Positions 347-64,000 are shown, counted from the stretch's first letter. The stretch is DNA of 64,000 bases from Candidatus Saccharimonadales bacterium (GCA_050730875.1 JBOHNX010000001.1:425972-489971); one strand, 5' to 3'. The notes: generated by a model from the letters alone, not told the origin. Translations and numbers: made by a program.

Positions 347-724
347 ATGACTGCTCCGACTACCAACGTCTTCACGATCACGCCGGCTAAGGTGATCGTG
401 GACATGGAGGGGTTGAAGAAGGCACTCCACCGTCACAACGCTCGAACTCTGTGCATGGATCTGGATGACAGAACCGACGCGAGCGGCGAACCCTTGTGGG
501 TGTCCGCAACCGTCAATGGCGACACTGCCTCGTACAGTCTGAGCCAGACCCACACCGGCCCCGATGGCACTGCTGACGTCTGGCTGTCGGGAGAGAAGTA
601 CTACCTTGTCGTGCGACTCGACCTCCTAGACCCTGTGGTTCAGGCGGTCGGCGAAATGCACAATGAGAACGCTTCCGACTGGGAGGACCTCCTCCATGCG
701 CTGCGCGCCCACTACTACAAGTAG
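347..724 (+). CDS. Hypothetical protein, high-G+C cassette A (125 aa)
   Basis: ORF track 275..724. I start at ATG 347, preceded by GGGAGG at 337-342. Spot count 37/60 G+C at 481-540. No family recognised. Confidence 0.6.
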   Translation: MTAPTTNVFTITPAKVIVDMEGLKKALHRHNARTLCMDLDDRTDASGEPLWVSATVNGDTASYSLSQTHTGPDGTADVWLSGEKYYLVVRLDLLDPVVQAVGEMHNENASDWEDLLHALRAHYYK

Positions 725-6950: not shown

Positions 6951-7014
6951 ACGCAAGCATAAGGCCTGGGAAAACTTTTCGGGTCTTTTGTTTTTACCAC
7001 AGGGGAGGAACGCT

Positions 7015-7332
7015 GTGAGCGTCATCTGTACCGAAGGAAAAATCACGCTTCGTTTCGATCAGCCCATCCTGGAAGACGAGGAGTTCCTGGCTCAGCCGCC
7101 GTCAGCCGTTCTACTGGTTGACGGCCGCAAAGCGAATGTTCCGGTCAACACGACCGACGAGGCCTATGGTCAGCTCATCCAGATGCTGCTGGGACTCGGG
7201 CGCGACAAGGTCGATCGGATCATCGTTCACGTCGGCTCAATCGAGGTCTTCAAACAGCCGGGTGCAAACCCTCTGCTCAACGAGCTGATCGAAGCCCACG
7301 TCCACAACCTCTACGAGAGCCTGGCCGCCTGA
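7015..7332 (+). CDS. Hypothetical protein, high-G+C cassette B (105 aa)
   Basis: ORF track 6988..7332. I prefer GTG 7015, which lies 5 nt after GGGGAGGA. Spot count 38/60 G+C at 7141-7200. No family recognised. Confidence 0.6.
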   Translation: MSVICTEGKITLRFDQPILEDEEFLAQPPSAVLLVDGRKANVPVNTTDEAYGQLIQMLLGLGRDKVDRIIVHVGSIEVFKQPGANPLLNELIEAHVHNLYESLAA

Positions 7333-7371: not shown

Positions 7372-7389
7372 CCAACACTCCCCTGTGGT

Positions 7390-11130: not shown

Positions 11131-11150
11131 TTGCTCTTGTACGACGACGA

Positions 11151-11229: not shown

Positions 11230-11970
11230 GTGTGCCCGAACCACTCTCAGCCCGACCCGACCCAGCAGTACGAGCACCACGAGCTGCCGGCGTCTCCCAC
11301 CCAGTGGGGGCCGCCACCGCAGCCGGCCCCGCCAGCCAAGTCCCGTGTGGGGCTGATCCTGGGGCTCGTGGGAGGTTTCCTCGCGCTGTTACTCGTCGTC
11401 AGTGGCGGTGTCGCCTTCGCCCTGAGTGGCGGAGACGAGCCGAAGCCGCCCGTCGGTCCGTCGGCCCAGCCGCCGAGCGAGACGCCCAGCGCCTCGCCGA
11501 CGCCGTCCGAGTCACCGACCATGAGCCCGGCGGAACGCGCCGACAGCTACATGAACTCGTGGCTCGACGCGGCCGGCCTCTCCGGCACTCCGGTGGTCCT
11601 CGTGACCACCGACCAGGAGTACACGTGCGGTGACGCCGTCAAGTACAACGGTGACGACGAGAACGCTCGACCTGTCGACCAGTGCGGCGGGAAGTTCTAC
11701 GTCATGGAGGCAGCCTTCTTCGCGAAGGACCTCGCCGGTGTGGACGCCGTGACCACGATGGAGATGTCCTACTACATCCTGGCCAAGAACGGCCTCGACA
11801 TCACCGACGCGACCGCGTCCTGCTTGTCAGGCGCGACCGTGGCCGATGCCGAGGAGCAGTTCCTCTCCCACGAAGACGCAGTCAAGGTGGGCGCGGAGTA
11901 CAACAAGTCGGGTCTCCTGGAGACCTTCGCGCACGGCTACAAGAACGGCGCGAAGTCCTGCTTCGAGTAA
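11230..11970 (+). CDS. Hypothetical membrane-anchored protein, high-G+C cassette C (246 aa): Pro-rich N-terminus, one TM, Cys-containing C-terminal domain
   Basis: ORF track 11131..11970. I prefer GTG 11230 after AGAAAGAGG. Features: PPPQPAPPAK, TM LILGLVGGFLALLLVVSGGVAFAL, PS-rich linker. Spot count 48/60 G+C at 11281-11340. Confidence 0.65.
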   Translation: MCPNHSQPDPTQQYEHHELPASPTQWGPPPQPAPPAKSRVGLILGLVGGFLALLLVVSGGVAFALSGGDEPKPPVGPSAQPPSETPSASPTPSESPTMSPAERADSYMNSWLDAAGLSGTPVVLVTTDQEYTCGDAVKYNGDDENARPVDQCGGKFYVMEAAFFAKDLAGVDAVTTMEMSYYILAKNGLDITDATASCLSGATVADAEEQFLSHEDAVKVGAEYNKSGLLETFAHGYKNGAKSCFE

Positions 11971-12006: not shown

Positions 12007-12043
12007 GCACAAACAAAGTCGTCGTACGACTTTCCAAGAATTT

Positions 12044-31403: not shown

Positions 31404-31712
31404 TCACTTCCACTGGATGTAGGACGCCGTGGCCCGGGAGCTGCTGTTGCAGAACCGGGTATCCCACCACGAGACGTAGCGGGGGAACCACGGCCCATAC
31501 ACCGTGTACGTGAAGTGGGAACCGATCACCTTGCACTGGACGGCGAGACGGGTCTCGCGGCCTTCGTAACTGCAACCGCCACCACCGGAGTTCCAGTAGA
31601 CCTCGGCCCGACAGGTATGAGCCTGGGCCGGCGTAGCGCCGAAGGCCATGGTACCACCCACGAGAGCGAATGACATCAGGGCGGTGGCGACGAACTTCTT
31701 GGTGCGTCTCAC
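31404..31712 (-). CDS. Small secreted Cys-containing protein, high-G+C cassette D (102 aa)
   Basis: Track ORF 31404..31775. I prefer GTG 31710-31712 after GGAAGGGA. Signal peptide RRTKKFVATALMSFALVGGTMAFGATPAQA|HT. Mature part has 4 Cys and is Trp/Tyr-rich. Spot count 38/60 G+C at 31501-31560. Confidence 0.65.
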   Translation of the reverse strand: MRRTKKFVATALMSFALVGGTMAFGATPAQAHTCRAEVYWNSGGGGCSYEGRETRLAVQCKVIGSHFTYTVYGPWFPRYVSWWDTRFCNSSSRATASYIQWK

Positions 31713-35004: not shown

Positions 35005-35652
35005 TTAAGCTTTTTTAGACTGCTGCTTGCGCCAGGTTTCGATTTGCGCGTGATTGCCCGTCAGCAGAACATCTGGTACTTTCATACCCTCAAACTCTGC
35101 GGGGCGCGTGTATTGCGGGAACTCAAGCGTTTCGCCATCGCTAAAGCTTTCGATTTCGGCCGATGTTTCGCCGCCTAGCACACCCGGCATGAGGCGTACA
35201 ACGCTGTCGATTACTATCATGGCGGGCAGTTCACCGCCCGTTAGCACGTAATCGCCAACCGAGATTTGCAGGTCTACAAGGCCCGTTATGCGTTCATCGT
35301 AACCTTCGTAACGCGCGCAGATAAAAATGAGCCCACGTGGCTCCTGAGCCAGCCTACGGGCACTCGCTTGTACCCAGCGCTCACCGCGTGGCGTCATGAG
35401 GACTACCAACGCATCAGGGTCGTTCGCCTTGGCAGTTTCTACAGCCTTGAACAACGGCTCCGGCTTCAACAGCATGCCGTCTCCGCCGCCATATGGCGTG
35501 TCGTCTACCTGCTTGCGCGGTCCAATACCAAAATCACGCAAATTAATATGCGTAAATTCAACGACCTTGCGGTCCTGCGCCTTCCACATCATGCTCTGGT
35601 TTAGCACTTCGAACATTTGCGGAAATAGTGAGATGGTTTGGATTTTTCTCAT
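35005..35652 (-). CDS. trmD: tRNA (guanine37-N1)-methyltransferase
   Basis: Track ORF to 35679. The family start MRKIQTISLFPQMF suggests ATG 35652. YGGGDGMLLKPEP and RYEGYDERI motifs. Confidence 0.9.
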   Translation of the reverse strand: MRKIQTISLFPQMFEVLNQSMMWKAQDRKVVEFTHINLRDFGIGPRKQVDDTPYGGGDGMLLKPEPLFKAVETAKANDPDALVVLMTPRGERWVQASARRLAQEPRGLIFICARYEGYDERITGLVDLQISVGDYVLTGGELPAMIVIDSVVRLMPGVLGGETSAEIESFSDGETLEFPQYTRPAEFEGMKVPDVLLTGNHAQIETWRKQQSKKA

Positions 35653-35672
35653 CTGTTCTATCTTATAGCGCA

Positions 35673-35701
35673 TTGACATTTTTGTCCATAGATGTTATTA
35701 T
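35673..35701 (+). promoter_or_regulatory. Sigma70-like promoter of cassette E (TTGACA-17 nt-TATTAT)
   Basis: -35 at 35673-35678, 17-nt spacer, -10 at 35696-35701. 61 nt upstream of ATG 35762. Confidence 0.4.
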
Positions 35702-35735
35702 AACGCAACTCTATTGCAGCAGAGCAAAGAGCGAA

Positions 35736-36058
35736 GTTTCCGTCTATCCGGGGAGTGCCGAATGGGTGAGATCGACCGCAAGATCCTTGAGACCATTGAC
35801 GAGCTCAGTGAAGTATACGTTTTCGCCTGGGAGGGTTACACACTCGAAGAGGTTCGCGTGAACATCGTCGAGCAGACCAAGTGGTTGCTCAGCGAAGAGG
35901 CCATCTCGCCGACACGTGCATTGCCGGGCGCTGTCCGCCTGCGCGTGAACGTCAAGGCAGTCGCCTTGGCGCGCAGCGTCGTGAGGCATCACAACATCCG
36001 CTACCTTACTCTACAGGTCGAGAAGCGGCTGGGGTACGCAGCCTGACAAGACGGAAAC
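35736..36058. repeat. 10-bp inverted repeat bracketing cassette E ORF
   Basis: GTTTCCGTCT at 35736-35745 and exact reverse complement AGACGGAAAC at 36049-36058, starting 3 nt after the stop. Confidence 0.65.
35762..36046 (+). CDS. Hypothetical protein, high-G+C cassette E (94 aa)
   Basis: Track ORF 35714..36046. I prefer ATG 35762 after GGGGAG. Spot count 40/60 G+C at 35881-35940 versus 30/60 in trmD (35041-35100). Opposite strand to the surrounding operon. Confidence 0.6.
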   Translation: MGEIDRKILETIDELSEVYVFAWEGYTLEEVRVNIVEQTKWLLSEEAISPTRALPGAVRLRVNVKAVALARSVVRHHNIRYLTLQVEKRLGYAA

Positions 36059-36091
36059 GGCGTGGGTTCTGGTTCTTACCAGGCCCACGCC
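36059..36091 (+). terminator. GC-rich hairpin after cassette E ORF
   Basis: GGCGTGGG..CTGG ttctta CCAG..CCCACGCC followed by ATTTTC. Confidence 0.45.
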
Positions 36092-36108
36092 ATTTTCAAT
36101 TGCAAACA

Positions 36109-36136
36109 AAACGACCGGCACCAAGGCCGGTCGTTT
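36109..36136 (-). terminator. Intrinsic terminator downstream of KH-domain gene
   Basis: AAACGACCGGC / GCCGGTCGTTT 11-bp stem. The minus-strand reading is followed by TGTTTGC. Confidence 0.6.
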
Positions 36137-36221
36137 CGCCACATAAAGCTCTCAAACTTCTGTTTGCTCGCACGAGCTTTTGATTTTTTGTTTTTCGTTC
36201 GTTCTTCGAACCTGGTATTGA

Positions 36222-36641
36222 TTATATGTCGAGGTCGTCGAGTTCTGCAAGCTCTTTTCGGGTACGCGTAGCTACAGATTCGCGTTCTTCCACAGGCTTA
36301 TCTGTTGCCTTGTCCACAGTTTCCCCATCTATATCGGCAACGGCTGCTACAACTGCTGCTGCAGAAGGTGCAGTGTTTGCTTCGCTGGCAGGTTTGTCGA
36401 CATCAACAATCTTTAAGTTATATCGGGCGTCGTTTTTGGTACCGAGCGCTCTAAGAAGCGTTCGAATGCTCTGCGCAGTTGCACCACGTTTTCCGATGAC
36501 ACGCCCAAGGTCTTCGGGGTCTACCGTAAGCTCCAACAGCACACCTTTTTCATCGATGCGGCGTTCAAGTTTGACGGCTTCAGGTTTGCTGACAAGTGAC
36601 TTGACAATAAACTCCACAAACTGCTGATCGATACTCGTCAT
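36222..36641 (-). CDS. KH domain RNA-binding protein (YlqC-like) with long acidic/Ala-rich C-terminal extension
   Basis: VIGKRGATAQSIRTLL is the KH GXXG motif. 139 aa. Confidence 0.85.
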   Translation of the reverse strand: MTSIDQQFVEFIVKSLVSKPEAVKLERRIDEKGVLLELTVDPEDLGRVIGKRGATAQSIRTLLRALGTKNDARYNLKIVDVDKPASEANTAPSAAAVVAAVADIDGETVDKATDKPVEERESVATRTRKELAELDDLDI

Positions 36642-36772
36642 GAACAGTCTCCCTTACATTACTGGTCGACCTTTATTGTACCGTAGCTTCACTATGTGAA
36701 GCAAATTTAAATACGGTGCTCTGGTACAAAATACAACAATTTTCACAGATGTACAACTTTATATGAAAATAA

Positions 36773-36796
36773 AAAACGCCCGTTTCAGGGCGTTTT
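36773..36796 (-). terminator. Intrinsic terminator after rpsP
   Basis: AAAACGCCC gtttca GGGCGTTTT, flanked by A/T runs on both sides. Confidence 0.7.
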
Positions 36797-36814
36797 CTTT
36801 TTCACGAAAACCGA

Positions 36815-37222
36815 TTATTCGGCTTTTGATTCGGTCGATTCAGCCTCGGTTTCGGCTGGTGCTGCCTCAGCTTCTGCGGCTGGTTCTTCAGCTACCGGCG
36901 CTTCCTTTGGCTGGTTTTTGCGAAGTTTTTCCGGATTGCGAGTCTTAGCAGTTTTGTCAGCGCTGGTTTTCTTTACCCATTCTGGCAAGGCAACCTTTTC
37001 ACTCTCGAGTACGCGTACGACGCGTGGTGTTGGCTGCGCACCATTCTTGAGATAGAACTCAACTTTTTCTTTGTTGATGGTTACGGCTTTGGTGTGTGGG
37101 TTGTAAGTGCCAACATAAGCAACGACGCGACCACTCGATGGGTGGCGCTGTGCTTCCTGGACTGCCAAGCGGTAAACCGGCAGACCCTTACGACCTAAAC
37201 GTTGCATACGAATTGCAAGCAT
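36815..37222 (-). CDS. rpsP: 30S ribosomal protein S16 with Ala/Glu/Lys-rich C-terminal extension
   Basis: MLAIRMQRLGRKGLPVYRLAVQEA...YVGTYNP. Confidence 0.92.
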   Translation of the reverse strand: MLAIRMQRLGRKGLPVYRLAVQEAQRHPSSGRVVAYVGTYNPHTKAVTINKEKVEFYLKNGAQPTPRVVRVLESEKVALPEWVKKTSADKTAKTRNPEKLRKNQPKEAPVAEEPAAEAEAAPAETEAESTESKAE

Positions 37223-58888: not shown

Positions 58889-59132
58889 GGCCCACTTCCT
58901 TCGCTAAAATCGCATTCTCAAAAGGTTAATGTCTAAAACCACTTTATCATTAATTGTGTTTTGTCTGCGAAGCGCCACGGCGCTGTTCGACTGTCGTTGG
59001 TACAATACTTTGAGTTATTTTTACACGAAATTAGGGATGAGATAGCCAAATGGAGGATAATCCTGGCGGTCCCTTATCAAGAGCATCTTTTAGGTAAGTA
59101 AGGTGTGGGACTCACACAACGATTACGATGCG

Positions 59133-59930
59133 CTACCCCTCTGACGGAGTAACACGAATTTGTCTTTGCTCAAGGGAGTGCATATCAATACCGCTTATTA
59201 TAGTCTCAGTTTCGTTATATAGTCGGTCAAGTATGTTGATATTTTTCTTTATAGTGGACATGTGGACTTTTAAATAATTCGGCTCATATCTCACGCCATT
59301 AAAGTGCTTGTGAAAGAACTTAATCGCATCGTTATACTCAGCATTAATTGGTTTCTTTGTGGGTGTCTTTGTGAACTGACCAAGCAAATTGACTACGCCT
59401 GAATGCTTCTTTGTTTTTAACTCAACTAGCGGGCTTGTAGCTAGCCGTGCTTTCAGTAAGTTCTCCGCCGCAGTCGTAGCAAGTGCAAGTGTCGTTCGGC
59501 GCGAAGTCTTCTGAGTAATTTTAGCCTGGTCAAGAAACTCTTTGCCCAAGTCTTGATAACCTCTGGCAGTCTCTGCGCCGTAAATGAAGCTGAAACTTAT
59601 ACTCCACTTGTTTTCTCCTTGAGAGATAAGAGTAATATGCCCAAAATTTAGGTCGTCAGGGTCTCTTTCCGCCAAGTGTAAATCTTCAATATCATTGTAG
59701 GTTATGCTTTCCCCGATTTTAACGGCTCTTTTGTATCTACCAATAATCTTTCCCTTAACCTCACCGTTTAGCCTTACTTTATATGACCCGTCCATACCAA
59801 GTATCACCTGCGCAGCCCTTAGCACAACCGGCAATGTTACCTCACCTCGCTTATTGCGTTCTAGAATTTCTGGATGCACCCATATTTTCATCGTTTGGTC
59901 ATATACGGCTTGCGCCATTTCTTGGTTCAT
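59133..59930 (-). CDS. Hypothetical protein (265 aa), possible C-terminal HEPN-like helical domain
   Basis: AT-rich gene. The C-terminal half has AAENLLKARL...KKHSGVVNLL...FFHKHFNGVRYEPNY, reminiscent of HEPN helices with H and R..Y positions. Weak, by eye only. Confidence 0.55.
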   Translation of the reverse strand: MNQEMAQAVYDQTMKIWVHPEILERNKRGEVTLPVVLRAAQVILGMDGSYKVRLNGEVKGKIIGRYKRAVKIGESITYNDIEDLHLAERDPDDLNFGHITLISQGENKWSISFSFIYGAETARGYQDLGKEFLDQAKITQKTSRRTTLALATTAAENLLKARLATSPLVELKTKKHSGVVNLLGQFTKTPTKKPINAEYNDAIKFFHKHFNGVRYEPNYLKVHMSTIKKNINILDRLYNETETIISGIDMHSLEQRQIRVTPSEG

Positions 59931-60022
59931 AATCTCAATTTTAAATGACCTATCTATTAAGTAAAATGCTTATATTTTACAGGGGTGGTGATAATTGCAG
60001 TTAGCAAATATAATGGCGCTAT

Positions 60023-62260
60023 ATGGAAGACCAGAAAAACAGACGCTCTTTATTTGCGAAGCTAACATCGTGGGCTGATATGAAGCTTCTTTCTCTGCGC
60101 AATAAGATTAAATACCGTATAGTTGGCAAATTATCTTCAATACATATAGTTATCGCAATTTTTATTGGACTAACAGTGCTAATTATTGTGGCAAAACGGA
60201 GTTGGTTTGGTAATCCACAGTTGCCGTCTGATATTGCCGAGCTTTACTTTGGTGCCGGAGCGGTCACAGGCGCAATGCTAGCAATAGTCTTTGCATTTAG
60301 CTCGCAGCTTGTATCAAGGGCGTCAGAAGCCTTACCTGCTCGTTACTTTAATATATTTGCAAGGGATACGAGACTGGACACATTCTACATTATTCTAGGT
60401 CTAATTACGGTCCTTGAGTTCACACTTGGCGTGGTGTCGTTAAATAGTTCTGGGCAAATAAATACGCTGCTGTTACGGCTGGGAATTTGGCTTGTATTAG
60501 TAACAGTTATTTTATTGTATTTCTCTTATACACGGCTTATTACCCTTTTAAGTCATGAGCACCAAGTGGCATGGTTGGCAAAATATCACATGAGCCAAAT
60601 TAAGGAGCTGACTTACTTAACAAAGCGCATGGCGCGAGCATCGCAGAGAGGCTTCAAAAACTTAACTGATAATGAAAAGTTAATTATTGAGGGGAATATG
60701 TATGAGCCAATGCAGGCTCAGATAAAAACCATCAACGACAATCTGGATGGCGTAATTGAGCTTTACTTCACTTACAAAAATAAGGGCGATGATTATGCAG
60801 CTCATAATTACATACATGTAGCTTTTGGGATGGTAATGTCCTACACACTATCACGACAAAAGAACTCACTGTTAAAAATTAATCCAGAGGCTGGCTTAAC
60901 TCCTGAAAGCAGTCTTTCAGCATTCTTGCAAACTAGCTTTGAGAAATTAAAAATTATATGGGATAAGGCGCTCGCCGAAAACGATGTTTATGCTATAAGA
61001 AAGTATTTGCGGGATGTTCAGGGATTAGTAAGAGTAAGCTTGATGGTTGAGCATCCCCAATCATCTCATGAAAATCCTGCCTACTTCACTGCATACTACA
61101 ATTTTAGCCAGTTGATTAAAGAAAGTACAAAAGCCAAGAATGTTGATGCACTTTTTGAAATTGCATCCGTTTTAGAGCAAGTCACTGAAATCGCCGTTAC
61201 CAAAAAGCATAGAACCGATGCACTTGAAGCCGTACTAAAAGATATCCAGTCCATCTGTATTGCGACAGCAGGAGGCGATGATGACATGAGTTCGGTAACT
61301 CATAATGTAATTAAAAATATGTTAACGATTTGCAACCGGATACTTACACAAAATGAGATAGATGACCATCGTTTACGGACTATGCAACAGATTGTGCCAA
61401 TGTGTCTGGTGCTCTATATCTTAGGCACAAAAAACAGCCTTACTGATATTGCCGTCACACATTTCGGTGACAATATATTTGCGATGGCTACACATAATAT
61501 GGATGAGCCTCCTACGAAAAAACAAATTCGTAAAGTTATTCAAACATCTAAATTTGTTATTAGCATCCTTCAAAAGTTAGCTTCAATCGCTAACGGCAAT
61601 AGGTATGAAACGCAATCAATGAACCGGTCAATCATGATAATGGCTCATACGCTCACCAAAATTCTGAATGACGAACTTGCTACCGAGCAACAGGCACAAG
61701 ACATACGCTGGATATTAAATGACTTAGCACAACTGCCTGGTTCGTTTCCAGCCCCAGACAAGACTAAGAGCCTAAATGATATTGAAGATTTCATTGACCA
61801 GCTTATACAAGCTGGCGTTATTGCCGTACAAGCTAACCAAATAGATGTTGCTACTAAAATATTTGATGAAATCCATGATTATTTACATAAGATGTTGACT
61901 GACAAAAATAGTAATGTTGAGGTCCACGAAATCTTACACGCAGTAAATGACACAAAGTTAATTGGTGCGACAGCCAGAAAACTAAGAAAGCAAAAGTTAC
62001 AGCAGCATGTAGCGAATAGGATTAGGGAGTTTGAAACCGCATACCATGCAAAGTATTATCCAGGCTATCCCAAAGGATATGACCCCAAGGTAGGGTACAC
62101 TCCCTTACCTCAGATGCTCAGGCAAGAGCGGGATGACTATTCATTCGGCTATCACGGTAGCGGACTTCCAGAATACTTTCATGATGCTAAGGGTGTGTTT
62201 TTACAATCATACACACAGGATGACCTAGATAATTTTGAAGATTATATCTGGCAGCACTAA
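60023..62260 (+). CDS. Hypothetical large membrane protein (745 aa): 4 N-terminal TM helices plus about 560-aa alpha-helical cytoplasmic domain
   Basis: AT-rich (spot count 18/60 G+C at 60121-60180). TM segments around aa 40-57, 73-96, 121-141, 150-172. No catalytic motif recognised. Confidence 0.65.
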   Translation: MEDQKNRRSLFAKLTSWADMKLLSLRNKIKYRIVGKLSSIHIVIAIFIGLTVLIIVAKRSWFGNPQLPSDIAELYFGAGAVTGAMLAIVFAFSSQLVSRASEALPARYFNIFARDTRLDTFYIILGLITVLEFTLGVVSLNSSGQINTLLLRLGIWLVLVTVILLYFSYTRLITLLSHEHQVAWLAKYHMSQIKELTYLTKRMARASQRGFKNLTDNEKLIIEGNMYEPMQAQIKTINDNLDGVIELYFTYKNKGDDYAAHNYIHVAFGMVMSYTLSRQKNSLLKINPEAGLTPESSLSAFLQTSFEKLKIIWDKALAENDVYAIRKYLRDVQGLVRVSLMVEHPQSSHENPAYFTAYYNFSQLIKESTKAKNVDALFEIASVLEQVTEIAVTKKHRTDALEAVLKDIQSICIATAGGDDDMSSVTHNVIKNMLTICNRILTQNEIDDHRLRTMQQIVPMCLVLYILGTKNSLTDIAVTHFGDNIFAMATHNMDEPPTKKQIRKVIQTSKFVISILQKLASIANGNRYETQSMNRSIMIMAHTLTKILNDELATEQQAQDIRWILNDLAQLPGSFPAPDKTKSLNDIEDFIDQLIQAGVIAVQANQIDVATKIFDEIHDYLHKMLTDKNSNVEVHEILHAVNDTKLIGATARKLRKQKLQQHVANRIREFETAYHAKYYPGYPKGYDPKVGYTPLPQMLRQERDDYSFGYHGSGLPEYFHDAKGVFLQSYTQDDLDNFEDYIWQH

Positions 62261-62377
62261 CAATTTACTTTAAAGGCGGGGGTAGGATCTCAGGGTCTAA
62301 CCCTAAACAGAGAGATAAACTCCGATTCATGCTAGATTGAAAACATGCCATCACGCAATACCGTCCGTCAATACGGC

Positions 62378-62941
62378 TCAAACCAACTTTCTCTCTTCAA
62401 GTATTTCTAGTAGTTTAGGAAATTGCTTATACTCATCGCTTCGCTCTAAATTGAAATGACCTTCACCAGTGATAACAATCATCTCCGCGCCCGTCTTAGT
62501 CGCCACATACTGTGCTTGATTGAGTGGCACATAGGGATCATTGTCTGAATGTATAAATAGCAGCTTATTCACACCGTTCCGTATAGCGGTCCAGTCAAAT
62601 TGAACGTCAAAAAGGTTGTCATTTGGCTGCCACTGCAGTGAGTTATTGTGGAACACTGAGACATCTACTATTGCACCAATCTTTTCCATATTATTCTCTG
62701 CAAGAACCAGTGCGAGTATTGCACCGCTTGAATGTCCAACAATCAATGTTCCTTCGTTAATAGGAAACGGACATTGGTCCTTTATAAATAGTTGCCACTT
62801 TCTAAGGCTCGGTTTTTCCGCTTGTGGCAGTTGTGGCAACCATACAGTTAAGCCTTTCGCCTCAAGCTCTTTTTTTAGCCATTGAAACCAGTTACCGTCT
62901 GGTGAACCTAGTGTACCGTGGAGAATAATTGCAGTTTTCAT
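62378..62941 (-). CDS. Alpha/beta hydrolase, YdeN/RBBP9-like serine hydrolase
   Basis: 187 aa. ILHG..GSP..NWF.WL, nucleophile elbow GHSSG, late D..V and GHF. Confidence 0.65.
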   Translation of the reverse strand: MKTAIILHGTLGSPDGNWFQWLKKELEAKGLTVWLPQLPQAEKPSLRKWQLFIKDQCPFPINEGTLIVGHSSGAILALVLAENNMEKIGAIVDVSVFHNNSLQWQPNDNLFDVQFDWTAIRNGVNKLLFIHSDNDPYVPLNQAQYVATKTGAEMIVITGEGHFNLERSDEYKQFPKLLEILEERKLV

Positions 62942-63384
62942 AGACGCTCTACTTCACTTCCGCTGATTACCTCCCCTAAGCCCTCACCTGTAAGCGGTAA
63001 CTCAATTTCCTTTACTACTCCTGCGTTGAGCATTGCAGCATTGAAGTATGCAAGTTTATGTTCGGGCAGATGGGCTAGGAAAACTTGCTTTTCAAGTGCA
63101 ACAGCAACGCCAATTTCTGTTTGAACACCTACCGATGGCTTCTCGTCTAATAAAGCGACCAAGACATCGCTCTCCTCAATATGCTCCATATCTAAGCTGA
63201 ACGCCGAAGCAGGGTCAGCGTCATTGATTTTGTACTGGTCAGCTCGTAAGGCACAGAAAACTGTGTGTCCTAAGGCTTCAACTACACCAAGTGTATTTTC
63301 AAGCCATTCTTTGTATTCAGGAAAAACCTCGCCAGTATCGTAATTTACCTGGGATGAATAGGAAGCTGCAACGAAAACTTTCAT
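62938..63384 (-). CDS. Nucleoside 2-deoxyribosyltransferase-like protein
   Basis: Start ATG 63384 (MKVFVAASY...). D..I..SDVLVALL......GV.TEIG.A.AL.K.V pattern of the NDT-like flavodoxin fold. 4-nt overlap with the hydrolase gene. Confidence 0.55.
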   Translation of the reverse strand: MKVFVAASYSSQVNYDTGEVFPEYKEWLENTLGVVEALGHTVFCALRADQYKINDADPASAFSLDMEHIEESDVLVALLDEKPSVGVQTEIGVAVALEKQVFLAHLPEHKLAYFNAAMLNAGVVKEIELPLTGEGLGEVISGSEVERL

Positions 63385-63560
63385 AACCATATCATAACAG
63401 AGGTTAAAACCTATCCATAGCAGCATCACTATATCTGTTAAAAGCTAACTTTTCTAACTTTTTGAGTCTAATGTTGATACGCACAAACTCAACGACCTTG
63501 CCAATCAGTTTAATTTAGCTTCCGACCACTAGCTATTTAATAGCCGCGGTCAACTTCTGT

Positions 63561-63980
63561 TTAGAGTTCTTCTGCGAGACCAATCAAAATCTGTTCAGGA
63601 CCACGAATATAGCAAAGGCGATAAGAGTTCTCGTACTGAACTATTTCACCGACAAGCTCTGCGCCGTATTTTTGGAGCCTAGACACAGTATCGTCAAGAT
63701 CTTCTACGGTAAACATATTGCGTAGGTAGCCGAGAGCATTCACTGGGGCATTGCGATGATCAGCGATAACAGGCGGGTTGATAAAACGCGATAACTCGAG
63801 ACGGCTGTGTCCGTCGGGGGTGACCATCATAGCAATCTCTACACTTTGGTCACCCAACCCGGTGACACGTCCTGCCCATTTACCTTCAACCATTGCTCGC
63901 CCTTCAAGCTTTAAGCCCAGCTCAGTGAAAAAGGAAATCACTTCATCAAGTGATTCCACCACGATGCCGACGTTATCCAT
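63561..63980 (-). CDS. VOC (glyoxalase/bleomycin-resistance) family protein
   Basis: 139 aa. MDNVGIVVESLDEVISFF..LG..LEG ... paired beta-alpha-beta-beta-beta pattern. Confidence 0.75.
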   Translation of the reverse strand: MDNVGIVVESLDEVISFFTELGLKLEGRAMVEGKWAGRVTGLGDQSVEIAMMVTPDGHSRLELSRFINPPVIADHRNAPVNALGYLRNMFTVEDLDDTVSRLQKYGAELVGEIVQYENSYRLCYIRGPEQILIGLAEEL

Positions 63981-64000
63981 CCTTTTTAGATTAGATTCTT

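What the first reader, a model, noticed from the sequence alone, without database searches (positions are those of the whole stretch)
35670..36136. Cassette E is inserted antisense inside the conserved rpsP-KH-trmD ribosomal operon
rpsP, the KH protein and trmD are all on the minus strand and are normally a tight operon. Here the KH-trmD gap holds a plus-strand consensus promoter (TTGACA-17-TATTAT, overlapping the upstream in-frame ATG at 35677-35679 that the ORF track uses as the trmD start). It also holds a 94-aa high-G+C ORF (40/60 versus 30/60 G+C) and two hairpins. One hairpin (36109-36136) reads as a minus-strand terminator after the KH gene. Convergent transcription from the cassette would collide with read-through into trmD, an essential gene.
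Basis: partly seen in the sequence, partly recalled or inferred. Interest (0 to 1): 0.6.

Follow-up and report, generated by a model that had tools for sequence, protein, structure and literature searches.

The report
Foreign orphan gene in variable trmD slot
A small, GC-rich orphan gene sits backwards between khpA and trmD in a Saccharibacteria genome, but it does not break an operon: it fills a gene slot that changes from genome to genome and is read from a promoter shared by many relatives.

Summary

The window is a Candidatus Saccharimonadales genome. In this clade the khpA-trmD junction is not tight. In 79 of 120 related loci the gap is 400 bp or more, and it usually holds an antisense ORF.

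The plus-strand promoter is not cassette DNA. It is half of a divergent promoter block of about 50 bp directly upstream of trmD. At least 31 relatives share this block although their downstream genes are unrelated. trmD has its own promoter at a fixed position, which probably gives a near-leaderless mRNA.

The minus-strand hairpin terminates a conserved, unannotated structured RNA element just after khpA. It has no Rfam match.

The truly variable cargo is 35702-36098: a 5'UTR, ORF94 and its terminator. ORF94 looks coding and foreign (GC3 0.76), and has no homologue in about 15 billion proteins. The slot's resident gene family has native GC3, and a sister cassette in the window is 80% identical in DNA to a 68% G+C contig. 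Both favour acquisition from a high-G+C donor.

The function of ORF94 is unknown, and transcription has not been measured.

The parts
36815..37222 (-). rpsP (ribosomal protein S16)
   Evidence: Pfam Ribosomal_S16, E 4e-14. An 11/12 promoter lies at 37294-37266. A terminator-like hairpin lies at 36798-36771.
36222..36641 (-). khpA-type KH-domain gene. Its last codons (GAC ATA TAA followed by T) form a TATAAT box at 36226-36221, with TTGCAG 18 nt upstream at 36250-36245.
   Evidence: Pfam KH_KhpA-B, E 5.5e-22. The ending gatataTAAT is kept in nearly all relatives where the RNA element abuts the stop codon, and differs where the element lies further away. The promoter role is inferred.
36103..36213 (-). 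Conserved structured RNA element downstream of khpA. P1 pairs 36211-36207 with 36201-36197. An A-rich linker follows. P2 is GCTC/GAGC and P3 is AAAC/GTTT, both within 36177-36154. A single-stranded GAGAGCTTTATGTGG follows.
   Evidence: Conserved in sequence across about 60 Saccharibacteria loci. The three hairpins recur in independent single-sequence folds. P3 covaries. It occurs once in the window. It has no Rfam match.
35702..36098 (+). Variable cargo of the slot, 397 bp, G+C 0.577: 5'UTR, ORF94 and its terminator
   Evidence: Similarity to relatives stops right after the -10 box and resumes at the RNA-element terminator. Locus L092 shows the empty slot, with the two elements abutting. The G+C step is 0.31 (promoter block), 0.58 (cargo), 0.45 (RNA element).
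35762..36046 (+). ORF94, an orphan protein of 94 aa (NCBI ACREGJ_02575, hypothetical protein)
   Evidence: GC1/2/3 is 0.63/0.38/0.76. SD GGGGAG lies at 35750-35755. The only database hit is itself. There are no family, solved-structure, phage, plasmid, metagenome-contig or viral-contig hits.
36053..36097 (+). Hairpin 1, the terminator of ORF94. An A-tract lies before it and AUUUUC after it, so it could act in both directions.
   Evidence: dG -30.1 kcal/mol, z -6.9.
35736..35745 (+). Left arm (GTTTCCGTCT) of a perfect 10-nt inverted repeat. The right arm is AGACGGAAAC at 36049-36058. The two arms bracket ORF94.
   Evidence: shuffle p about 0.002. A comparable repeat occurs in cassettes B and C. 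It is unexplained.
35653..35701 (.). Conserved divergent promoter block, G+C 0.31. Plus strand: TTGACA 35673-78, TG 35693-94, TATTAT 35696-701, predicted start about 35708. Minus strand, for trmD: TGGACA 35688-83, TAAGAT 35665-60, predicted start at or within 2 nt of the ATG.
   Evidence: Start sites are inferred from hexamer positions.
35005..35652 (-). trmD (tRNA m1G37 methyltransferase). The true start is the ATG at 35652, not the ATG at 35679.
   Evidence: Pfam tRNA_m1G_MT, E 4e-54. All 160 relatives align from residue 1-11 of the short form, and 155 of them from residue 1-3. The conserved promoter lies between the two ATGs.

Best explanation
The khpA-trmD spacer of this Saccharibacteria lineage is a mosaic of three parts.
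1. A conserved small RNA element with its own terminator, directly after khpA.
2. A conserved divergent promoter block of about 50 bp, directly before trmD. One face drives trmD as a near-leaderless mRNA. The other face fires away from trmD.
3. A slot between them whose content is replaced over evolutionary time.

In this genome the slot holds a 397-bp piece of DNA from a higher-G+C source. It carries a 5'UTR with an SD sequence, an orphan 94-aa soluble protein gene and a strong hairpin terminator.

ORF94 is probably transcribed from the resident consensus-strength promoter and stopped by its own hairpin. The rpsP, khpA (with the RNA element) and trmD units would then stay insulated from it.

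The cargo most likely entered by natural transformation and recombination, with the conserved flanks as homology anchors.

Shown: the anatomy, the conservation of the flanks, the diversity and turnover of the slot, the foreign composition, and the lack of homologues. Inferred: the start sites, actual expression, the route of entry, the donor, and any function of the protein.
For: **The slot is real and common.** Among 120 loci with both genes, 35 have gaps of 250 bp or less and 79 have gaps of 400 bp or more. The longest ORF of 80 aa or more is antisense in 47 loci and sense in 20. The 47 promoter-proximal ORFs fall into 38 clusters.

**The content turns over.** Content is shared by 100% of locus pairs with TrmD identity of 90% or more. 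The share falls to 74% at 85-90%, 23% at 80-85%, and about 5% below 80%. The window's nearest relative is 77% identical.

**The promoter block is conserved.**
- The position matrix upstream of trmD shows TtGACA at -36..-31 and TAnAnT at -13..-8.
- 70% of wide-gap loci score 8/12 or better at those fixed positions, against 2.6% in controls.
- The antisense -10 box ends at -49 or -50 in 21 of the 35 wide-gap loci whose antisense promoter scores 9/12 or better. In the window it ends at exactly -49.
- Sequence similarity ends immediately after that -10 box.
- Locus L092 is an empty slot.

**The cargo is foreign.**
- ORF94 has GC3 0.76 against 0.59 for trmD and 0.44-0.45 for khpA and rpsP.
- The composition step coincides with the conservation boundaries.
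- A resident slot gene family (FAM1, 14 loci) has native GC3, mean -0.04 relative to trmD. Other promoter-proximal occupants average +0.15 (Mann-Whitney p 3e-4). High GC3 is therefore not a property of the site.
- Cassette D of the same window is 80% identical in DNA over 473 bp to a 68% G+C contig. The match includes the 5' leader and the hairpin.

**Other support.** The hairpins are very stable. Saccharibacteria are naturally competent and integrate DNA with about 1 kb of flanking homology. The cultivated members grow on Actinobacteria (PMC10633639). An independent Logan assembly reproduces the locus with 100% identity over 6285 bp.
Against: - No donor or homologue was found for ORF94 itself, so its foreign origin rests on composition and on analogy with cassette D.
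- No relative closer than 77% TrmD identity is available. The time and direction of the event cannot be read, and 'orphan' partly reflects sparse sampling.
- No transcription data exist. The promoters, start sites and the leaderless trmD mRNA are consensus-based inferences.
- The promoter block is almost never seen without cargo (1 of 20 tight-gap loci). It could therefore travel with cargo rather than pre-exist.
- The TrmD tree is poorly resolved: 22 state changes for the block, against a mean of 31 when states are permuted.
- FAM1-bearing loci place the antisense promoter elsewhere, at about -91.
- The AlphaFold2 model of ORF94 is unreliable (pLDDT 54).
Confidence: 0.6

Rival explanations
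1. A complete foreign cassette (promoter, ORF and hairpins) was inserted into a tight, co-transcribed rpsP-khpA-trmD operon. Its transcription now collides with the read-through on which essential trmD depends.
For: Gene order and strand are as described. Compared with tight-gap relatives, the extra DNA does include the plus-strand promoter. The two promoters of the block overlap by 16 bp. RNA polymerase bound at the strong ORF94 promoter could therefore compete with the weaker trmD promoter, 11/12 against 9/12.
Against: The promoter block is shared by at least 31 loci with unrelated cargo. trmD has its own promoter at a conserved position in wide-gap loci. In tight-gap loci a -10 box is kept at about the same place, behind a terminator. 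ORF94 is divergent from trmD. Two hairpins of -25 and -30 kcal/mol separate ORF94 from khpA. rpsP also has a terminator after it.
Confidence: 0.1
2. ORF94 is not foreign. It is a native, very fast-evolving descendant of an ancestral slot gene, diverged beyond recognition.
For: The resident FAM1 family evolves fast: 25-50% identity where TrmD is 70-82% identical. At 77% TrmD identity only about 5% of locus pairs still share recognisable content.
Against: FAM1 keeps native GC3 (-0.15 to +0.02), whereas ORF94 is +0.15 to +0.17 above trmD and about +0.3 above khpA and rpsP. ORF94 is soluble, while FAM1 is tail-anchored in the membrane. hmmsearch with the FAM1 profile gives no hit to ORF94 even at E 10. 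The 5'UTR and terminator are G+C-rich too.
Confidence: 0.12
3. The cargo is a small self-contained mobile cassette of the integron-cassette or MITE/IS type. It moves by site-specific recombination or transposition, and the inverted repeats or hairpins are its recombination sites.
For: Perfect 10-12-nt inverted repeats bracket the ORF in cassettes B, C and E, each with shuffle p of 0.004 or less. Foreign-looking ORFs sit promoter-proximal to the resident gene in L089, L091, L100 and L158. L114 and L117 hold arrays of units that each end in a repeated G+C-rich element. This recalls integron arrays.
Against: The repeat arms differ between cassettes. No target-site duplication was seen, and there is no second copy of the cargo in the window. 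No GTTRRRY core lies anywhere in 35563-37056. The cassettes are scattered and each carries its own promoter. The slot cargos of 25 relatives show no such repeats. Integrase and transposase genes were not searched for.
Confidence: 0.1
4. ORF94 is not translated. The strong promoter makes a non-coding or antisense RNA whose role is regulatory, for example setting trmD promoter activity by polymerase competition.
For: The protein has no homologue, so purifying selection cannot be tested. In empty-slot locus L092 the same promoter fires straight into the terminator, so the promoter can exist without any gene.
Against: G+C is strongly periodic over codon positions, 0.63/0.38/0.76. By my own arithmetic from the codon counts, not a tool result, this gives chi-square of about 29 with 2 d.f. 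A well-spaced SD sequence is present. The ORF fills the space between UTR and terminator. Most relatives have an SD-led ORF in the same place.
Confidence: 0.08

Closest known systems
Hot spots of horizontal gene transfer between conserved core genes (genomic islets replaced by homologous recombination in the flanks, as known in naturally transformable bacteria)
   Same: The flanks are conserved core genes. The content is non-homologous and turns over between genomes. The cargo has a foreign composition. The host group is naturally competent (PMC10633639).
   Different: The slot is very small, one gene of 50-200 aa. It lies behind a fixed, consensus-strength resident promoter that is welded to the promoter of an essential gene. 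The cargo is richer in G+C than the genome, whereas acquired genes are usually richer in A+T (own knowledge).
The trmD operon of model bacteria (rpsP-rimM-trmD-rplS in E. coli; rpsP-ylqC/khpA-rimM-trmD-rplS in Firmicutes)
   Same: rpsP, khpA and trmD lie in the same order on the same strand.
   Different: No rimM lies between khpA and trmD, and the gene after trmD is a nickel superoxide dismutase, not rplS. Each gene is followed by a terminator-like hairpin. trmD has its own promoter.
Integron platform (resident Pc promoter and attI site, with cassettes each ending in an attC hairpin)
   Same: A resident promoter reads into exchangeable ORF-plus-hairpin units. In some relatives the newest-looking unit is promoter-proximal, and small arrays occur.
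   Different: No attC core motif is present. No integrase was identified, though none was searched for. The units often carry their own promoters, and their hairpins are unrelated in sequence.
Divergent (back-to-back) sigma-70 promoter pairs
   Same: Two -35 hexamers lie 4 bp apart on opposite strands, each with its own -10 box. The predicted start sites are about 56 bp apart.
   Different: Conservation of the pair across many genomes, with a variable gene on one side only, is the unusual feature. No start site has been measured.
KhpA/KhpB-associated small RNAs (Fusobacterium nucleatum, PMC11039985; Clostridioides difficile, PMC10117727)
   Same: A conserved sRNA-like element of about 110 nt, ending in a terminator, lies directly next to khpA. 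It carries repeated single-stranded GCGAG and GAGAG motifs.
   Different: Binding to KhpA is pure conjecture. The element matches no Rfam family, and it may be a 3'UTR rather than a separate RNA.

Membership tests
Co-transcribed trmD operon (rpsP-khpA-[rimM]-trmD-[rplS]) | Genes in the same order on one strand | tested here: met
   rpsP 36815-37222, khpA 36222-36641 and trmD 35005-35652 are all on the minus strand.
Co-transcribed trmD operon (rpsP-khpA-[rimM]-trmD-[rplS]) | Short intergenic gaps with no internal terminators or promoters | tested here: not met
   The gap is 569 bp and holds two hairpins of -25 and -30 kcal/mol. A conserved promoter lies directly before trmD. A terminator-like hairpin follows rpsP.
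Co-transcribed trmD operon (rpsP-khpA-[rimM]-trmD-[rplS]) | rimM before trmD and rplS after it | tested here: not met
   No RimM domain was found in 39 gap ORFs of relatives or in ORF94. The gene after trmD is Sod_Ni. Other positions in the genome were not searched.
Horizontally acquired islet at a recombination hot spot | Composition departs from the host genome and changes at the borders | tested here: met
   GC3 is 0.76 against 0.44-0.59 for the neighbouring genes. G+C steps 0.31 / 0.58 / 0.45 at the conservation borders.
Horizontally acquired islet at a recombination hot spot | Conserved flanks with variable content at the orthologous site in relatives | tested here: met
   120 loci were compared. 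There are 38 clusters among 47 occupants, and turnover tracks TrmD divergence.
Horizontally acquired islet at a recombination hot spot | An identifiable donor lineage or homologue outside the recipient clade | tested here: not met
   ORF94 has no homologue. The feature is met only for sister cassette D: 77% protein identity and 80% DNA identity to a 68% G+C contig.
Integron gene cassette | attC site with the conserved GTTRRRY core at the cassette end | tested here: not met
   No GTTRRRY occurs between 35563 and 37056 on either strand.
Integron gene cassette | Integron integrase (intI) and attI site next to the array | not tested
   The ORFs of the window were not screened for tyrosine recombinases. 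None lies within 3 kb of the slot.
MITE or IS-type transposable element | Terminal inverted repeats, a target-site duplication, and multiple copies | tested here: not met
   A 10-nt perfect inverted repeat is present. No direct repeat flanks it, the arms differ between cassettes, and the cargo is single-copy.
Intrinsic (rho-independent) terminator | G+C-rich hairpin followed by a U-tract | tested here: met
   Hairpin 2 on the minus strand is followed by UUUUGUUUG. Hairpin 1 on the plus strand has only a short tail, AUUUUC.
Any Rfam RNA family (for the element after khpA) | Covariance-model score at or above the gathering threshold | tested here: not met
   There are no hits at gathering score in the window. 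E-value scans of the window copy and of two canonical copies return only chance hairpin matches.

The most novel reading that the evidence does not exclude
A clade of Saccharibacteria keeps a dedicated 'expression slot' beside the essential trmD gene. It has a fixed strong promoter on one side and a conserved, undescribed small RNA with a bidirectional terminator on the other. Small foreign genes, often from high-G+C donors such as their actinobacterial hosts, are repeatedly dropped in, expressed and swapped. Functionally this resembles an integron, but it runs on natural transformation and homologous flanks instead of an integrase. ORF94 is the current occupant in this genome.
Probability: 0.3. 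Interest if true: 0.65.

Novelty: new variant of a known kind. Interest (0 to 1): 0.42.

Why it matters
Saccharibacteria have tiny genomes and live on other bacteria. How they gain new functions is poorly understood. This locus shows a concrete and repeatable route: a promoter-equipped slot beside an essential gene, where small foreign genes are installed and replaced.

The work also yields four practical points.
- The trmD start is probably mis-annotated, 9 codons too long.
- trmD probably has a near-leaderless mRNA.
- There is an unannotated conserved RNA next to khpA, the gene for a known type of RNA-binding protein.
- 'Conserved operon' expectations from model bacteria do not transfer to this phylum.

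Because cultivated Saccharibacteria can now be transformed, the slot could be tested directly. It could also serve as an expression site.

Tried and rejected
**Homologue and family searches for ORF94.** Nothing real was found anywhere.
- The word-indexed search of 5.8 billion clusters found only the protein itself.
- Full HMMER over 1.84 billion representatives found only the protein itself plus P0002. P0002 is a 2180-aa repeat protein whose 14 short repeats inflate the score, so I rejected it.
- Pfam, PHROGs, PADLOC and NCBIfam gave nothing above threshold.
- PDB sequences, phage and plasmid tblastn, JGI metagenome contigs and IMG/VR gave nothing.

**Structure.** The single-sequence AlphaFold2 model has pLDDT 54. 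I ran no fold search because matches to such a model would be meaningless.

**Closer relatives.** No relative closer than 77% TrmD identity turned up in genome or metagenome scans.

**Other checks with negative results.**
- RNAalifold on the MAFFT alignment recovered only the terminator, because the variable hairpins are misaligned. I used per-sequence folds and anchor-based stem analysis instead. No covariance model was built.
- The 5'UTR of ORF94 has no significant structure (z -0.03).
- The five cassette proteins of the window are unrelated to one another and to the slot proteins of relatives.
- Slot proteins of relatives carry almost no known domains: one TM2 and one Rce1-like, plus weak RexB-like hits.
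- G+C-biased gene conversion at a recombination hot spot as the cause of high GC3 was rejected. The resident FAM1 genes in the same slot have native GC3.
- A leader-peptide reading of the RNA element was rejected because its ATG is not conserved.

Full report
**1. What the sequence shows**

The window comes from a Candidatus Saccharimonadales genome. ORF94 is identical to NCBI protein ACREGJ_02575, which lies on a 556-kb contig. An independent Logan assembly of run SRR27067773 matches 6285 bp around the locus at 100% identity.

On the minus strand lie rnc, rpsP (36815-37222), a KhpA-type KH gene (36222-36641) and trmD, followed by a nickel superoxide dismutase gene.

- The promoter is TTGACA(35673-78)-17-TATTAT(35696-701), with a TG extension. 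It scores 11/12.
- Only three sites in the 64-kb window score that well, against 1.1 expected. The other two lie upstream of rpsP and of cassette D.
- The ORF is 35762-36046. Its G+C is 0.59 and its codon-position G+C is 0.63/0.38/0.76. GGGGAG lies 6 nt before the ATG.
- The two hairpins have dG of -30.1 and -25.3 kcal/mol, with z-scores of -6.9 and -5.1.

**2. The junction is not tight in this clade**

I fetched 160 related loci through TrmD. In 120 of them khpA and trmD could both be placed.

The gap is bimodal. It is 250 bp or less in 35 loci, 250-400 bp in 6, and 400 bp or more in 79. The window's gap is 569 bp, and the median of the first 66 loci was 585 bp.

In wide gaps the longest ORF of 80 aa or more is antisense in 47 loci and sense in 20.

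The occupants are extremely diverse.
- The 47 promoter-proximal ORFs fall into 38 clusters.
- They have almost no known domains.
- About a third carry a predicted membrane segment.

Content tracks relatedness. It is shared by 100% of locus pairs with TrmD identity of 90% or more, by 74% at 85-90%, by 23% at 80-85%, and by about 5% below that. The window's nearest sampled relative is 77% identical. A unique occupant is therefore what one would expect here.

**3. The promoter belongs to the site, not to the cargo**

A position matrix of 90 trmD upstream regions shows TtGACA at -36..-31, TG at -16/-15, and TAnAnT at -13..-8 relative to the ATG. The window has TGGACA and TAAGAT at exactly these positions.
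- 70% of wide-gap loci score 8/12 or better at these fixed positions, against 2.6% at control positions.
- With the -10 box ending 8 nt before the ATG, the predicted start is at the ATG or within a few nucleotides of it. No SD sequence is present. trmD is therefore probably near-leaderless (inferred).
- The upstream ATG at 35679, used by gene callers, lies upstream of the trmD -10 box. Relatives align from the ATG at 35652: all 160 from residue 1-11 of the short form, and 155 of them from residue 1-3.

On the other strand, the best promoter has its -10 box ending at -49 or -50 in 21 of the 35 wide-gap loci that score 9/12 or better. In the window it ends at -49.

Thirty-one loci and the window share a block of about 50 bp: CAT-ctgttaccagtgtac..tATTGACttttTTGTaaATAtaTGcTATAAT. 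All similarity stops immediately after the TATAAT. Beyond it each locus has its own 5'UTR, SD sequence and ORF.

Locus L092 has the block directly abutting the upstream terminator. It is an empty slot and defines the insertion point.

**4. The second hairpin belongs to a conserved RNA element**

A conserved element follows the khpA stop codon in about 60 loci. It has:
- a hairpin P1 (AGUUCA..UGAACU);
- a single-stranded GCGAGA and an A-rich linker;
- a hairpin P2 (GCUC..GAGC);
- a variable hairpin P3;
- a single-stranded UGAGAGCCUUAUAUGU;
- a terminator.

The evidence that it is a structured RNA is as follows.
- Single-sequence folds recover the three hairpins almost everywhere.
- P3 covaries, for example AAACC/GGUUU, AACAAA/UUUGUU and AACUU/GAGUU. 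Of 41 unique variants, 93% form 5 or more pairs, against 39% of chimeric controls.
- P1 varies with compensation. The window has GUUCG/CGAAC.

The last khpA codons plus one base (GAT ATA TAA T) form a TATAAT box, with TTGCAG 18 nt upstream. This ending is kept wherever the element abuts the stop codon, and is lost where it does not. That suggests the element has its own promoter (inferred).

The element occurs once in the window, with its core at 36146-36177. It matches no Rfam family. The window copy lacks the first GCGAGA motif.

**5. What is foreign**

The cargo is what lies between the two conserved parts, 35702-36098.
- G+C is 0.577, against 0.31 for the promoter block and 0.45 for the RNA element.
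- ORF94 has GC3 0.76. Most other ORFs of the window lie between 0.38 and 0.67. ORFs at 0.69 or above are the plus-strand cassette ORFs A, B, C and E, plus one ORF that overlaps a tRNA gene.

Two controls argue that high GC3 reflects origin rather than location.
1. A resident family, FAM1, occupies the slot in 14 loci. It is a tail-anchored protein of about 110 aa with native GC3 (-0.15 to +0.02 relative to trmD). Other promoter-proximal occupants average +0.15 (p 3e-4). In L089, L091, L100 and L158 a high-GC3 ORF sits between the promoter and FAM1.
2. Cassette D of the same window (31407-31712, minus strand) has homologues in two places. One is a 77%-identical protein in a 68% G+C contig with MarR, TetR, SDR and ABC genes. 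There the DNA is 80% identical over 473 bp, including the leader and the hairpin. The other is a high-G+C island in a 1.13-Mb contig of about 52% G+C.

Neither ORF94 nor cassette C (G+C 0.65, GC3 0.86) has any homologue.

**6. How it most likely works**

Shown: three insulated units. They are rpsP; khpA with the RNA element, ending at hairpin 2; and trmD with its own promoter. A fourth unit is oriented away from trmD, between the resident promoter and hairpin 1.

Inferred: ORF94 is expressed from the resident promoter. The only plausible interference with trmD is competition between the two overlapping promoters. They share 35673-35688 and score 11/12 against 9/12.

Entry by natural transformation with homologous flanks fits three things: the sharp borders, the turnover pattern, and the experimentally shown competence of Saccharibacteria (PMC10633639). 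It has not been demonstrated here.

The protein is soluble, with a low-confidence alpha/beta prediction. Its function is unknown.

**7. Unexplained**

A perfect 10-nt inverted repeat brackets ORF94, at 35736-45 and 36049-58. Cassettes B and C carry analogous repeats of 12 nt (including the SD sequence) and 10 nt.
- Each has a shuffle p of 0.004 or less.
- Only 1.1% of other ORFs in the window reach 10 nt.
- The slot cargos of relatives lack such repeats.

Pairing of the 5' and 3' UTRs in the mRNA, or a trace of the entry mechanism, are both possible.

**8. Verdict**

The feature is a horizontally acquired orphan gene in a recurrent, promoter-equipped variable slot, not a disruption of an operon. 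It is a new variant of a known kind (a gene-turnover hot spot). A conserved, undescribed RNA element came to light as a by-product.

Noticed in passing
window 36103-36213 (minus strand); also about 60 related loci, e.g. L032:3852-3977 and L003:3168-3307: A conserved structured RNA element of about 110 nt lies directly after the khpA stop codon. It has three hairpins, repeated single-stranded GCGAG and GAGAG motifs, and a terminator. A probable promoter of its own is built into the last khpA codons. It has no Rfam match. It could be an sRNA or a 3'UTR element, and a link to the KhpA RNA-binding protein is conjecture only.
   Followed up: partly
window 35652 versus 35679 (minus strand): The trmD start is probably annotated 9 codons too far upstream. 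Homologues start at the ATG at 35652. A conserved promoter lies between the two ATGs, with its -10 box 8 nt before the ATG and no SD sequence. This implies a near-leaderless trmD mRNA across the clade.
   Followed up: yes
window 347-724 (+), 7015-7332 (+), 11230-11970 (+), 31404-31712 (-): There are four more high-G+C units, each with a promoter, an ORF and a G+C-rich hairpin (cassettes A-D). GC3 is 0.69-0.86 for A-C, and cassette D has overall G+C of about 0.64. Their proteins are unrelated to each other and have no Pfam domain. Their hairpins mostly lack a U-tract. Cassette C is an orphan. Cassette D has a homologue in a 68% G+C contig (80% DNA identity) and in a second Saccharibacteria-like genome at a different locus.
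   Followed up: partly
window 6996-7007 / 7378-7389; 11139-11148 / 12018-12027; 35736-35745 / 36049-36058: Perfect 10-12-nt inverted repeats join the 5'UTR to the 3' flank in cassettes B, C and E. In cassette B the repeat covers the SD sequence. Each has a shuffle p of 0.004 or less. Such repeats are rare around other ORFs of the window and absent from the slot cargos of relatives.
   Followed up: partly
L012, L006, L024, L044, L064/65/67, L084, L089/L100, L091, L111, L158, L161 (khpA-trmD gap, antisense strand): FAM1 is a fast-evolving, tail-anchored protein family of about 110 aa. Its N-terminus reads MEF...SDEQRxLAETKKxTLxP. It has native composition and looks like the long-term resident of the slot. 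In several loci a high-GC3 gene is inserted between it and the promoter.
   Followed up: partly
L117 and L114 (khpA-trmD gap): In these loci the slot holds arrays of 2-4 units. Each unit has its own TTGAC-17-TATAAT promoter, and each is followed by a repeated G+C-rich element of about 60 nt (..CGCCCGGAGCGACGCC..GTRCCCGGGCRAAATCCCGGGCAC..). The elements could be duplicated terminators or recombination sites.
   Followed up: no
window 36771-36798 and 36675-36704: A bidirectional terminator-like hairpin follows rpsP. A weak candidate promoter (TTGCTT-18-TACAAT, 8/12, found by eye) and an SD sequence precede khpA. Even rpsP and khpA may therefore be separate transcription units in this genome.
   Followed up: no
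window 59100-64000: The last 5 kb or so drop to about 0.40 G+C, against 0.49 for the rest of the window. This is a compositional island of the opposite sign to the cassettes.
   Followed up: no
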